Shown here in pieces: positions 1 through 1,743 of a stretch of DNA of 46,116 bases (positions within the stretch are counted from its first letter, which is position 1; each line of letters begins with the position of its first letter). The DNA is from a virus (lineage: Duplodnaviria > Heunggongvirae > Uroviricota > Caudoviricetes): IMG/VR virus record IMGVR_UViG_2565956722_000005, positions 1 through 46,116 of that record, one strand, 5' to 3'. Under the pieces are notes generated by a model, which saw only the letters and a program-made list of their open reading frames with translations, was not told the origin of the DNA and did not search any database. Made by a program: the position numbers and the translations under genes.

Positions 1-1743
1 ATGAAATACTCTAACAGCAATCTTATTATAAAAATAATACATCTACTTTCACAAAAAAGAGATGGTCTGATTTTGCTTGATGGGAGCTGGGGCACAGGAA
101 AGACTCACTTTATCAGAAAAAAATTCCCCAAGTACTATGATAAAAACATTTTCTATTATATTTCTTTACTAGGTATTAAATCCTTATCAGATTTCAAAGC
201 TAAAATTATAGATTGTTACTACCTGCAAGATATACAAACATTTAAATCCGGGCTCGAAAGTCTATCAGGGATAGGTAGCATTGCCAGCGGCTCACCTGCA
301 AGTGCCAATATTATTAACAGCATGTTTAATTCTATTGGTGCAAGTGTTAGAGAAAACATTTTATCAAAACTGGATGGTATTTTTATATTGGATGATATAG
401 AGAGAATATCCGAAAAATCATTAGTTAGTGAAATTTTGACATATTGCCATTCTCTTTATATGTCCGAGATGAACTCAAATTTAGACTTTATTATTATTAC
501 CAATACATCAACTGAGTCTGGTTTAAAAATAGAACACAAGGAAAAACTCATTGCAGAAACACTTCATTATAATCCGCATCCAGAGGAAATATTGGATATA
601 GATATAATAAATGGAAAGCTTTCCCAATTCCCACAGGAAGATAAAATTCTCTTTGAGGATATAGTAAAAAATAACAACATAGTTAACATCCGTATTTTGA
701 TGCGTATTTTGGACACAGTTACGCCATTATATGAATACGTTAAATCATATCCTCATCTTTCTTGGCGAATACCATCAACAATTCTTTTAAACTCAATATG
801 CTCTTTCTTCATTTTATTATTTTTGCATAATCACTCTCTTGAGGATCTTCTCAAGGACAAAGATCCAACTTTTTTATTAAACACCGAGAAATCAAGTGAT
901 AGTGAGAGAGTGCTATGGTTAGCATTGAATAATTACAAAATAAAACCTGAGATTAAAAGGTATTATAGCGGACAAGCTTCATTAAATGACATATTGGATG
1001 TTTTGTTTTATGAAGCAAAACGGCTTACTATGAGAGAAATTGCAATATCAGCACGTCCAGAATTACATGAGATAAATGAAAAGGAACTTTCAAATACACT
1101 TGTCGACTTAATTTGCCGTAAGATTGACTGTAATTTCTATGAATGGATAAAAGCGTTTCAGAATTATGAGTATTTAACCACACATAAATACCTACCAAAA
1201 TCACCAATTATAACTCTAAAGTTTGTCACTTCGATTCTGAACGGATTCACTGACAATGAAGTTGCAGAATGCTTTGAGCTATACTCACTTGATAGAAAAA
1301 ATAGCTTAAATAGTGGTTTTGAAGATAGCAAATTGCTGTACTCAATTTCATTTTACCGTTATGAAAGCACGATCAAAATGCGTGAACTCAACACTATTAA
1401 GTTGCAATTAGAATTGAATGGCTGGGCATCATTCAATGCTAACCAATTAACCACTTTAGATCCATTCGGAAATTATAAGCCGCTTGAAGTACTTGGTGTA
1501 TCATTTGTAACAAAATGCGTTTTAAAGAATTGGGCAGTTAATGATATTGAGCAATTTAGTTCTTTCTTGCGTAGCAACTATCAAATCAGCAACATAAAAC
1601 AATTCGCCACTAATGAAAAAAACAAACTTATTTATCTTAGTCAAAAACTTGATATTTTTTGCCTTTCCTATAAAGAAAGCTTTAAATTTGGAGCCATATA
1701 CGATCTAAACAGAACAGTTAAAATTGCCATTAACAAATTATGA
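1..1743 (+). CDS. KAP-family-like P-loop NTPase (PifA-like), candidate phage-exclusion/abortive-infection protein
   Basis: 580-aa ORF with ATG at window base 1; Walker A GSWGTGKT near aa 30 and Walker B-like IFILDDIE about 90 aa later; very AT-rich unlike adjacent phage genes; family call from motifs only. Confidence 0.55.
   Translation: MKYSNSNLIIKIIHLLSQKRDGLILLDGSWGTGKTHFIRKKFPKYYDKNIFYYISLLGIKSLSDFKAKIIDCYYLQDIQTFKSGLESLSGIGSIASGSPASANIINSMFNSIGASVRENILSKLDGIFILDDIERISEKSLVSEILTYCHSLYMSEMNSNLDFIIITNTSTESGLKIEHKEKLIAETLHYNPHPEEILDIDIINGKLSQFPQEDKILFEDIVKNNNIVNIRILMRILDTVTPLYEYVKSYPHLSWRIPSTILLNSICSFFILLFLHNHSLEDLLKDKDPTFLLNTEKSSDSERVLWLALNNYKIKPEIKRYYSGQASLNDILDVLFYEAKRLTMREIAISARPELHEINEKELSNTLVDLICRKIDCNFYEWIKAFQNYEYLTTHKYLPKSPIITLKFVTSILNGFTDNEVAECFELYSLDRKNSLNSGFEDSKLLYSISFYRYESTIKMRELNTIKLQLELNGWASFNANQLTTLDPFGNYKPLEVLGVSFVTKCVLKNWAVNDIEQFSSFLRSNYQISNIKQFATNEKNKLIYLSQKLDIFCLSYKESFKFGAIYDLNRTVKIAINKL

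What the first reader, a model, noticed from the sequence alone, without database searches (positions are those of the whole stretch)
1..1743. Stand-alone AT-rich KAP-type P-loop NTPase at the prophage tail-fibre-distal edge: candidate single-gene anti-phage system
A 580-aa ORF has Walker A GSWGTGKT near the N-terminus and a Walker B-like IFILDDIE, then about 380 aa with no recognisable domain. It is far more AT-rich than the adjacent lambda-like tail genes and is convergent with them. The only KAP NTPase I know with a phage phenotype is F-plasmid PifA (T7 exclusion). It may be prophage cargo or flanking island; the attachment site is not in the window.
Basis: partly seen in the sequence, partly recalled or inferred. 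Interest (0 to 1): 0.8.

Follow-up and report, generated by a model that had tools for sequence, protein, structure and literature searches.

The report
Prophage-borne KAP NTPase defence candidate
An intact, AT-rich, stand-alone gene for a KAP-type ATPase sits in a swappable cargo slot at the end of an E. coli lambda-like prophage; it looks like an untested single-gene anti-phage protein, of a kind that others have already predicted and, for distant relatives, shown to work.

Summary
Window 1..1743 (+) is a real 580-aa gene at 31.6% GC. It has a KAP-type Walker A (GSWGTGKT, residues 28-35) and Walker B (IFILDDIER, 127-135), and it is convergent with the tail-fibre genes. Pfam KAP_NTPase passes its cut-off.

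The gene lies inside the att-bounded prophage, which is inserted just upstream of thrS. It has no partner gene. It occupies a cargo slot framed by SRAP -> [slot] <- umuC <- umuD. In this window both frame genes have decayed to remnants while the KAP gene is intact.

Other elements carry KAP alleles of 37-70% identity, cold-shock genes or a small unknown ORF in the same slot. KAP also occurs alone in islets. It is under purifying selection (dN/dS about 0.12-0.16) but changes 3-5 times faster than umuC, and fastest in its all-alpha C-terminal half.

It is a divergent branch of PADLOC's untested candidate PDC-S49. It is not PifA, Tmn or QatA.

A 2025 preprint shows that KAP NTPases fused to unknown C-terminal regions can defend on their own. 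The defence reading is therefore plausible but unproven, and it is not new in kind. The effector mechanism is unknown.

The parts
1..1743 (+). KAP-family P-loop NTPase gene, 580 aa, with TGA stop at 1741-1743; annotated in RefSeq as WP_000877736.1 'P-loop NTPase fold protein'
   Evidence: ORF. Pfam KAP_NTPase 29 bits, above the cut-off of 20. PADLOC PDC-S49 E 7e-16. PHROG 4740, unknown function, E 5e-18. RefSeq annotation. dN/dS 0.12-0.16.
82..105 (+). Walker A codons, GSWGTGKT (residues 28-35), with the tryptophan typical of KAP NTPases
   Evidence: Translation. G28, W30, G31, G33, K34 and T35 are invariant in 26 homologues.
229..327 (+). Insert rich in small residues, between Walker A and Walker B (residues 77-109, ...SGLESLSGIGSIASGSPASANIINSMFN...). 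Its sequence is conserved but it is modelled with low confidence. By my recollection of the founding KAP paper, which I could not open, other KAP/YobI NTPases carry transmembrane hairpins at about this position.
   Evidence: pLDDT 33-43. Family identity 0.62-0.75 in these blocks, and no segment here is hydrophobic enough for a transmembrane helix.
379..405 (+). Walker B and following motif, IFILDDIER (residues 127-135)
   Evidence: D131, D132, E134 and R135 are invariant.
748..1740 (+). C-terminal all-alpha domain (residues 250-580): the putative sensor or interaction module and the fastest-evolving part of the protein
1752..1783 (.). A 14-bp hairpin just after the stop codon, between the convergent ends of KAP and the umuC remnant; a possible bidirectional terminator
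   Evidence: RNA fold -14.3 kcal/mol, z = -2.6 against shuffles. The consensus terminator scan did not pick it up.
1788..1838 (-). Remnant of the 3' end of a umuC-like (Y-family polymerase) gene, covering its last 17 codons
   Evidence: tblastn with UmuC of three related loci, E 0.015-0.64, residues 406-422. DNA colinearity with the Citrobacter SRAP-KAP-umuC module runs to about window 1838.
1839..2224 (.). AT-rich non-coding spacer (a deletion scar) between the umuC remnant and the first tail-side prophage gene
   Evidence: No ORF over 40 aa. It is found only in the 71 E. coli genomes that carry this KAP allele.

Best explanation
The gene is an autonomous, horizontally mobile cargo gene ('moron'). 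It sits in the variable slot at the attR-proximal, tail-fibre-distal end of a DLP12-like lambdoid prophage, and it most likely protects the lysogen against other phages or mobile elements.

Shown here:
- It is an intact KAP-family P-loop NTPase with every catalytic motif conserved.
- It appears to carry its own promoter-like element and a terminator-like hairpin.
- It has no partner gene.
- It stays intact while its neighbours decay.
- It is replaced by very divergent alleles, or by unrelated cargo, between conserved flanks.
- It is a distant branch of a family already predicted to be defensive.

Inferred:
- The all-alpha C-terminal domain, the fastest-evolving part, binds a phage-made protein or complex.
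- Binding switches the N-terminal NTPase into an NTP-bound, probably oligomeric, active state, as in ORC/Cdc6-like and STAND-like ATPases.
- No nuclease, protease, TIR or pore domain is present. The output is therefore most likely the NTPase activity itself (ATP drain) or an NTP-driven disturbance of a host or membrane complex, stopping phage growth in the way reported for PifA (membrane depolarisation) or Tmn (raised ATP turnover).
- The conserved small-residue insert at residues 77-109, where I recall other KAPs carrying transmembrane hairpins, may mediate peripheral membrane contact.
For: Family and fold:
- Pfam KAP_NTPase is above its cut-off.
- Walker A, Walker B, R135, E181, K182, N229 and R231 are invariant.

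Defence link:
- PADLOC PDC-S49 hits the protein at E 7e-16.
- Intermediate relatives that match my family profile at about 1e-55 to 1e-72 match PDC-S49 over its full length at about 1e-30.
- PDC systems were predicted by embedding within BREX, DISARM and type I RM systems.
- A 2025 preprint shows four KAP NTPases with uncharacterised C-terminal regions that defend as single genes; protection by the one that was mutated needs the Walker B motif.

Autonomy and mobility:
- The gene lies inside the att duplication.
- It has no neighbouring ORF.
- A TTGAnn-17-TAAnAT element 58-86 bp upstream of the ATG keeps its position in about 6 of 8 unrelated contexts, by my reading of the alignment.
- It occurs alone in a Cronobacter islet, in a Citrobacter freundii island next to a second KAP gene, and in a colicin/IS island.
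- It is in 74 of 5426 E. coli genomes.
- All alleles are 31-36% GC, against 51-54% for the adjacent umuC.

Selection:
- dN/dS is 0.12-0.16, against 0.02-0.03 for umuC at the same dS.
- C-terminal dN is about twice N-terminal dN.
- Between Citrobacter L007 and locus L014 the flanking SRAP, UmuC and UmuD are 90-95% identical, while KAP is 37% identical with no DNA similarity.
- KAP is intact where SRAP and umuC are reduced to remnants, and also in strain PSS-10, where almost the whole prophage is gone.
Against: - No experiment exists for this protein or for its closest family. PDC-S49 is one of 145 candidates its authors describe as untested.
- The match to PDC-S49 covers only the N-terminal half of this protein.
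- Immediate neighbours of close homologues give no significant PADLOC hit apart from one weak match (PDC-M33C, E 7e-5). Other occupants of the same slot are not defence genes: cold-shock genes in phage PHB10, with sseI nearby in Gifsy-2.
- No effector domain is recognisable, so the killing or arrest step is conjecture.
- No transmembrane helix supports the membrane idea.
- The promoter-like match is no better than chance in a single sequence: 11 sites found against 13.4 expected.
- Two of the 74 E. coli copies appear frameshifted.
- No homologue was found by tblastn in 50,697 phage records.
Confidence: 0.55

Rival explanations
1. KAP is a functional partner of the SOS and translesion-synthesis cargo, SRAP/YedK-like peptidase plus UmuD/UmuC. 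For example, it could be an NTP-dependent loader, regulator or sensor acting on damaged DNA or on polymerase V, rather than an immune protein.
For: The order SRAP -> KAP <- umuC <- umuD recurs across several elements:
- A Citrobacter lambdoid prophage.
- Two E. coli prophages next to ssrA.
- Locus L014, where KAP is only 39% identical.
- As remnants, around this window.
- An Enterobacter plasmid carries KAP next to umuC, and DNA colinearity with L007 extends over the SRAP position.

SRAP and KAP are co-oriented and only 64-81 bp apart.
Against: - The slot holds unrelated cargo in other elements that keep the same SRAP/umuDC frame.
- KAP occurs without either partner in Cronobacter, C. freundii and a colicin island.
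- In this window and in PSS-10, KAP is intact while SRAP and umuC are wrecks.
- There is no CTG-N10-CAG LexA box in the KAP upstream region, whereas umuD has good ones.
- KAP is 32% GC against 52% for umuC, and it evolves 3-5 times faster, so the genes have different histories.
Confidence: 0.1
2. KAP serves the prophage or mobile element in some way other than classic anti-phage immunity. It could exclude plasmids or satellites, act in addiction or stabilisation of the element, or modulate the host membrane or physiology as a fitness or virulence moron.
For: - It is always on mobile or island DNA.
- The same slot elsewhere carries fitness cargo: csp genes in PHB10, with sseI nearby in Gifsy-2.
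- Strain EC931, which carries this prophage, also has a capsid-encoding satellite inserted in the prophage capsid gene, so satellite conflict does occur in this setting.
Against: No feature points to a particular non-immune role. The architecture of NTPase plus a fast-evolving alpha-helical domain, and the PDC-S49 link, fit sensor-type immunity better. Nothing here separates anti-phage from anti-plasmid or anti-satellite activity.
Confidence: 0.2
3. The gene is a silenced or decaying passenger with no current function. It would be carried along only because the prophage remnant is fixed in a few clones.
For: - The recent E. coli pair, window against PSS-10, shows 17 non-synonymous and 6 synonymous changes, dN/dS 0.71.
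- Two of 74 copies look frameshifted.
- The Shine-Dalgarno sequence is weak and the DNA is very AT-rich, which from general knowledge makes it a likely H-NS target.
- Both neighbours are already pseudogenes.
Against: - A 580-codon frame stays open at 31% GC in 72 of 74 genomes.
- dN/dS is 0.12-0.16 over longer distances.
- Catalytic residues are invariant down to about 18% identity.
- Full length is conserved across most of the 282 clusters that match at E <= 1e-30.
Confidence: 0.1

Closest known systems
PADLOC PDC-S49 (single-gene 'phage defence candidate', Payne et al. 2024 preprint)
   Same: Both are stand-alone proteins of about 580-625 aa with an N-terminal KAP-type P-loop. The profile hits this protein at E 7e-16. 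Intermediate relatives of this protein match the PDC-S49 profiles end to end.
   Different: Only residues 24-291 of this protein align to the profiles. The C-terminal domain has diverged beyond direct detection. PDC-S49 was defined by embedding in BREX, DISARM or type I RM loci, whereas this gene sits at a prophage end. PDC-S49 itself is untested.
EF_KAP and three metagenomic KAP NTPases (RADS preprint, PMC12632615)
   Same: They are single-gene systems made of a KAP NTPase followed by about 320 aa with no known domain. Defence by EF_KAP, the one that was mutated, needs the Walker B motif. EF_KAP is equally protective at MOI 1 and MOI 10.
   Different: EF_KAP has two N-terminal transmembrane helices, and this protein has none. 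They come from Firmicutes and were found next to serine recombinases.
PifA of the F plasmid (T7 exclusion)
   Same: It is a founding KAP member, lacks transmembrane helices, and is a single protein on a mobile element. It causes abortive infection with membrane depolarisation and nucleotide leakage.
   Different: The PADLOC PifA profile (720 positions) does not match this protein, even at E <= 1. Length and C-terminal region differ. PifA's triggers, T7 gp1.2 and gp10, cannot be assumed here.
[quoted passage not shown]
   Same: It is a single-gene, effector-less NTPase defence whose output is raised ATP turnover and a membrane-linked arrest.
   Different: Tmn has two transmembrane helices inside the P-loop domain and forms a decameric membrane complex. 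This protein has no transmembrane helix and gives no Tmn profile hit.
QatA of QatABCD
   Same: From my own knowledge, QatA is the NTPase component of the QatABCD defence system and is of KAP type. The QatABCD structure paper turned up in the KAP NTPase literature search, but I did not open it.
   Different: From my own knowledge, QatA works with QatB, QatC and QatD. No such partners or any other partner ORFs are present here, and there is no QatA profile hit.
STAND/Avs and ORC/Cdc6-type ATPases
   Different: This protein has no N-terminal effector domain and no TPR or WD repeats that the tools recognise. It is much shorter than Avs proteins.

Membership tests
KAP P-loop NTPase (Pfam PF07693) | Profile match above the curated gathering score | tested here: met
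   29.0 bits against a cut-off of 20, residues 7-169. Most homologues carry precomputed PF07693.
KAP P-loop NTPase (Pfam PF07693) | Walker A of the form GxWGxGK[ST], and Walker B hhhhDD followed by an acidic residue and an arginine | tested here: met
   GSWGTGKT and IFILDDIER are present, and all key residues are invariant in 26 sequences. The motif definition comes from my knowledge of Aravind et al. 2004, which I could not open.
KAP P-loop NTPase (Pfam PF07693) | Transmembrane helices inserted in or flanking the NTPase domain (typical but not universal; PifA lacks them) | tested here: not met
   The only strongly hydrophobic 19-mer (257-275, Kyte-Doolittle 2.09) is modelled with high confidence as a helix of the helical domain and I read it as buried; it is not hydrophobic in distant homologues. 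The insert at 77-109 is rich in small residues and is not transmembrane. PifA also lacks transmembrane helices.
KAP P-loop NTPase (Pfam PF07693) | Alpha-helical region C-terminal to the NTPase | tested here: met
PADLOC PDC-S49 | Match to the PDC-S49 profiles over the whole protein | tested here: inconclusive
   The direct hit covers only 24-291 of the protein, E 7e-16 to 9e-7. Relatives P0052, P0054, P0070 and P0090 match positions 27-618 of 624 at E 1e-25 to 1e-32, and they match this family's profile at E 1e-55 to 1e-72.
PADLOC PDC-S49 | Found embedded in or next to known defence systems | tested here: inconclusive
   Neighbours of close homologues give no significant PADLOC hit. Among 129 ORFs around 20 distant relatives there are a few strong hits (PDC-S06, OloA/OloB, type II methyltransferases, JukA, capP), but no background rate was computed.
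PifA | Match to the PifA profile | tested here: not met
   There is no PifA hit at E <= 1 for the window protein. One distant relative gives a P-loop-only hit at E 3e-5.
Tmn / YobI family | Two transmembrane helices inside the P-loop domain, and a tmn profile match | tested here: not met
   There is no transmembrane hairpin and no tmn hit.
QatABCD | KAP-type QatA encoded together with QatB, QatC and QatD | tested here: not met
   No adjacent ORFs over 50 aa on either side, and no Qat profile hit.
Anti-phage defence system (functional class) | Reduces phage replication when expressed, depending on the NTPase motifs | not testable with these tools
   No experimental report was found for WP_000877736 or for PDC-S49.

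The most novel reading that the evidence does not exclude
The SRAP -> [slot] <- umuC <- umuD frame at the attR end of enterobacterial prophages may be a so far undescribed hotspot for cargo exchange. In it, very divergent KAP alleles of 37-70% identity, each with its own promoter, would be swapped by recombination in the conserved flanks. The KAP protein would be an effector-less immune sensor whose only output is its own NTPase. A bolder version is that its placement between two SOS-controlled genes is functional. It could be expressed or triggered when a resident or invading phage activates the SOS response, or when phage DNA damage is sensed, linking DNA-damage signalling to immunity.
Probability: 0.2. 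Interest if true: 0.65.

Novelty: new member of a known kind. Interest (0 to 1): 0.42.

Why it matters
If the gene is active, it would give E. coli geneticists an easily handled, soluble, 580-aa KAP NTPase with no transmembrane helix to work on. It could be used to find out how effector-less KAP proteins stop phages, which is still unknown for PifA after decades.

It would also validate a branch of the untested PDC-S49 candidate family. The carriers I could see include human and animal isolates, several with ESBL- or OXA-type strain names, so it could matter for choosing therapeutic phages.

The SRAP/umuDC-framed slot is a practical handle for mining further prophage cargo. None of this changes the current picture of bacterial immunity. 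It adds a member and a context.

Tried and rejected
- **NCBIfam:** nothing meaningful (Hda, E 0.16).
- **PHROGs:** only an unknown-function family.
- **PDB sequence profile search:** nothing beyond P-loop noise.
- **Phage collection:** tblastn of the protein found no match. Plasmids gave one real homologue, in Enterobacter.
- **Scan of species-representative genomes:** it returned only relatives of 22-33% identity. The close family is accessory and is missing from representative genomes, so this scan could not be used for the slot analysis.
- **AFDB Foldseek library:** unavailable.
- **Aravind et al. 2004:** could not be opened.
- **LexA box upstream of KAP:** the CTG...CAG near the start has a 12-nt spacer instead of 10, and there is no proper box, so I rejected it.
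- **Hydrophobic helix 257-275 as a membrane anchor:** rejected, because I read it as a buried helix in the model and it is not conserved as hydrophobic.
- **SRAP DNA search in E. coli genomes:** swamped by chromosomal yedK at 78% identity.
- **Housekeeping role:** rejected on distribution, 74 of 5426 genomes, always on mobile DNA.
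Full report
**What is there**

Window 1..1743 (+) is a single 580-codon ORF. In a complete genome that contains the window (E. coli EC931, NZ_CP049118.1), the frame is closed by a stop two codons upstream of the ATG. Close homologues begin at the same aligned position. Window position 1 is therefore the true start.

GSWGTGKT is residues 28-35 and IFILDDIER is residues 127-135. In an alignment of 26 homologues reaching down to about 18% identity, these residues are invariant: G28, W30, G31, G33, K34, T35, D131, D132, E134, R135, E181, K182, N229, R231 and W382.

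GC is 0.31-0.33 across 1-2000, against 0.44-0.60 in the tail region. The adjacent genes run on the opposite strand. They are a 102-aa ORF, an S74-chaperone tail-fibre protein, a 93-aa ORF and a 793-aa side tail fibre.

**Where it is**

The window is a DLP12-like lambdoid prophage of E. coli inserted between thrS and arpB/espL1. It runs from the KAP start codon to the integrase start codon.

Comparison with K-12 shows that about 190 bp of the thrS-arpB intergenic region is present on both sides of the insert. The copy on the integrase side is 99.7% identical to K-12, and the copy on the KAP side is 88% identical over the whole aligned stretch. A 23-bp core is identical in all three sequences, ACACGAAAGATCACATACAAAGA. 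It lies 29-51 bp upstream of the thrS start codon and 688-710 bp upstream of window position 1.

The gene is therefore prophage cargo inside the att sites, in the position of lambda's b region. It is not a flanking island.

**Is it alone?**

No ORF longer than 50 aa lies in the 738 bp upstream or the 480 bp downstream. The flanks are not empty, though.

- Upstream, at 85-431 bp before position 1, there is a frameshifted remnant of an SOS-response-associated peptidase (SRAP/YedK-like). tblastn gives E 9e-18 over residues 88-205.
- Downstream, window 1788-1838 (-) encodes the last 17 residues of a UmuC-like polymerase (E 0.015-0.64).
- DNA colinearity with an intact Citrobacter module runs from the SRAP 3' end, through KAP, to window ~1838 at 74% identity.

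The ancestral arrangement was therefore attR | SRAP -> KAP <- umuC <- umuD <- tail fibres.

**A variable slot**

The same frame recurs with different contents:

| Element | Slot content |
|---|---|
| Citrobacter lambdoid prophages | KAP, 70% identical |
| E. coli prophages next to ssrA (SRAP is a pseudogene in one and not called in the other) | KAP, 58% identical |
| Enterobacter plasmid (no SRAP gene listed in its gene table; DNA colinear with L007 over that position) | KAP, about 70% identical |
| Locus L014, next to a resolvase | KAP, 39% identical |
| Phage PHB10 | Cold-shock genes and small ORFs |
| E. coli 210205630 | A 135-aa unknown ORF |

In Gifsy-2, an SRAP remnant lies near the effector gene sseI.

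Between Citrobacter L007 and L014 the flanks are 83-84% identical in DNA, and SRAP, UmuC and UmuD are 90%, 95% and 91% identical as proteins. KAP is only 37% identical, with no detectable DNA similarity, and the break points fall at the two gene ends.

KAP also occurs with no frame at all:

- Alone between core genes in Cronobacter sakazakii.
- In a C. freundii island that holds a second KAP gene.
- Beside a colicin operon, an IS element and AlpA.

About 6 of 8 contexts, by my reading of the alignment, keep a TTGAnn-17-TAAnAT element 58-86 bp before the ATG. A 14-bp hairpin follows the stop codon (-14.3 kcal/mol, z -2.6). This looks like a self-contained expression cassette. A single-sequence promoter scan, however, is no better than chance.

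**Selection**

By Nei-Gojobori counts, dN/dS is 0.12-0.16 for KAP at dS of about 0.9-1.5. For the adjacent umuC it is 0.02-0.03 at the same dS. KAP dN in the C-terminal 330 residues is about twice that in the N-terminal 250.

The L007/L014 pair has KAP dN of 0.675 against umuC dN of 0.034. That is too large a gap for shared descent at the usual rate, so an old allele was swapped in. Every KAP allele is 31-36% GC whatever the host or neighbour, while umuC is 51-54%.

The gene is present in 74 of 5426 complete E. coli genomes. In 71 of them it is at least 98.6% identical and sits at this site. Two copies look frameshifted. In strain PSS-10 almost all of the prophage is gone but KAP is intact.

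**The protein**

Pfam KAP_NTPase scores 29 bits against a cut-off of 20. The AlphaFold2 model has mean pLDDT 84.6. It has three parts:

- Residues 77-109 are a conserved, small-residue-rich insert modelled at low confidence. By my recollection, other KAPs carry transmembrane hairpins at about this position.

There is no nuclease, protease, TIR, SIR2 or pore domain, and no transmembrane helix.

**Family**

The word-indexed search found 38 clusters, mostly about 580 aa long and full length down to 30% identity, in Enterobacterales. The exhaustive profile search found 282 clusters (at 50% identity) at E <= 1e-30, mostly 550-615 aa, and 5884 at E <= 1e-10.

PADLOC gives PDC-S49 at E 7e-16, but only over residues 24-249. 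Intermediates P0052, P0054, P0070 and P0090 match PDC-S49 across positions 27-618 of 624 at about 1e-25 to 1e-32. I therefore place this protein on a divergent branch of that family.

PDC systems are 145 candidates inferred from embedding in BREX, DISARM and type I RM loci, and their authors call them untested. There are no hits to the PifA, Tmn or QatA profiles.

Neighbours of close homologues give no significant PADLOC hit. Around 20 distant relatives, a few strong defence hits appear among 129 ORFs, but I have no background rate to compare with.

**Literature**

KAP or KAP-like NTPases in defence now include several cases:

- PifA causes membrane depolarisation and nucleotide leakage, and lacks transmembrane helices.
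- Tmn raises ATP turnover, exports Mg2+ and causes plasmolysis.
- QatA of QatABCD.
- A 2025 preprint reports an Enterococcus KAP protein with a 322-aa unknown C-terminal region, plus three metagenomic ones. All protect as single genes. The Enterococcus protein, the one that was mutated, needs its Walker B motif, and it is equally protective at low and high MOI.

I found nothing on WP_000877736 or on PDC-S49 itself.

**Verdict**

The best reading, at about 0.55, is a stand-alone immune or anti-mobile-element cargo gene. The fast-evolving alpha-helical C-terminal domain would sense an invader product. The KAP NTPase would convert that into an NTP-dependent arrest, by ATP consumption or by disturbing a host or membrane complex. 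Only the anatomy, mobility and selection pattern are shown. The trigger and the output are inferred by analogy.

The main rival is a role in the SOS/translesion module. It is weakened by five observations: the slot's variable content, KAP's independent occurrences, its survival after both neighbours decayed, the lack of a LexA box, and its different composition and evolutionary rate.

The kind of system is known, and this family had already been flagged computationally. I therefore rate it a new member of a known kind, with moderate interest. The SRAP/umuDC-framed slot is the most original by-product of the work.

Noticed in passing
outside the window, 688-710 bp upstream of position 1 (L001 11291-11313; phage-borne look-alike to about L001 11480): The prophage integrates 29-51 bp upstream of the thrS start codon, within the thrS upstream region. 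It brings its own look-alike of that region, about 190 bp and roughly 80% identical, which replaces the native sequence in front of thrS. The 23-bp att core is ACACGAAAGATCACATACAAAGA.
   Followed up: partly
L002 4729-16054 (E. coli EC931); the corresponding point in the window is about 19521: In strain EC931 the same prophage has an 11-kb element inserted inside its major capsid gene. The element carries an integrase, a primase, its own major capsid and decoration proteins, an Icd-like protein, and SWIM and DUF2971 genes, and looks like a capsid-forming satellite. The window has the uninterrupted capsid gene.
   Followed up: no
window 33059-37049: A low-GC (0.35-0.37) cargo block resembling DLP12. 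It holds an AraC-type regulator, a PEBP/YbcL-like protein, a 508-aa large serine recombinase and an SMR (EmrE-like) efflux protein. None of them hits PADLOC.
   Followed up: partly
window 28061-30820: A second low-GC cargo patch (0.316 at 28-29 kb). It holds an AraC-family regulator, a YbgA-like protein (2-thiouracil desulfurase plus DUF1722) and a lipocalin. None of them hits PADLOC.
   Followed up: partly
window 3892-6273 (-), especially 5000-6000: The 793-aa side tail fibre contains a long run of near-repeats rich in Ala, Ser and Thr (...KTSETNAKSSQTAAKTSETNAKASETAAK...). This gives a strong AT skew (-0.39) and spurious long ORFs in other frames.
   Followed up: no
window 2225-2533 (-): A 102-aa ORF with hydrophobic stretches lies between the KAP cassette and the tail-fibre genes. 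It is conserved next to tail fibres in many lambda-like phages, where it is annotated as hypothetical (FIG00639861). It has no Pfam or PADLOC match.
   Followed up: partly
L006 (E. coli PSS-10) and hit H1 (strain FFFEB2): In PSS-10 the prophage is reduced to KAP, tail-fibre fragments and an integrase fragment, yet KAP is intact. In FFFEB2 an IS1 element lies within the first 2.6 kb of this region, between KAP and the tail-fibre end.
   Followed up: no
L099 16659-17740 and 10021-12678 (Citrobacter freundii): A 59%-identical KAP homologue sits in an island with a second, unrelated 746-aa KAP_NTPase gene and an 885-aa CHP02642 protein. None of the four neighbouring ORFs tested has a PADLOC match, and the second KAP gene itself could not be tested. 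This may be an uncharted defence island.
   Followed up: partly
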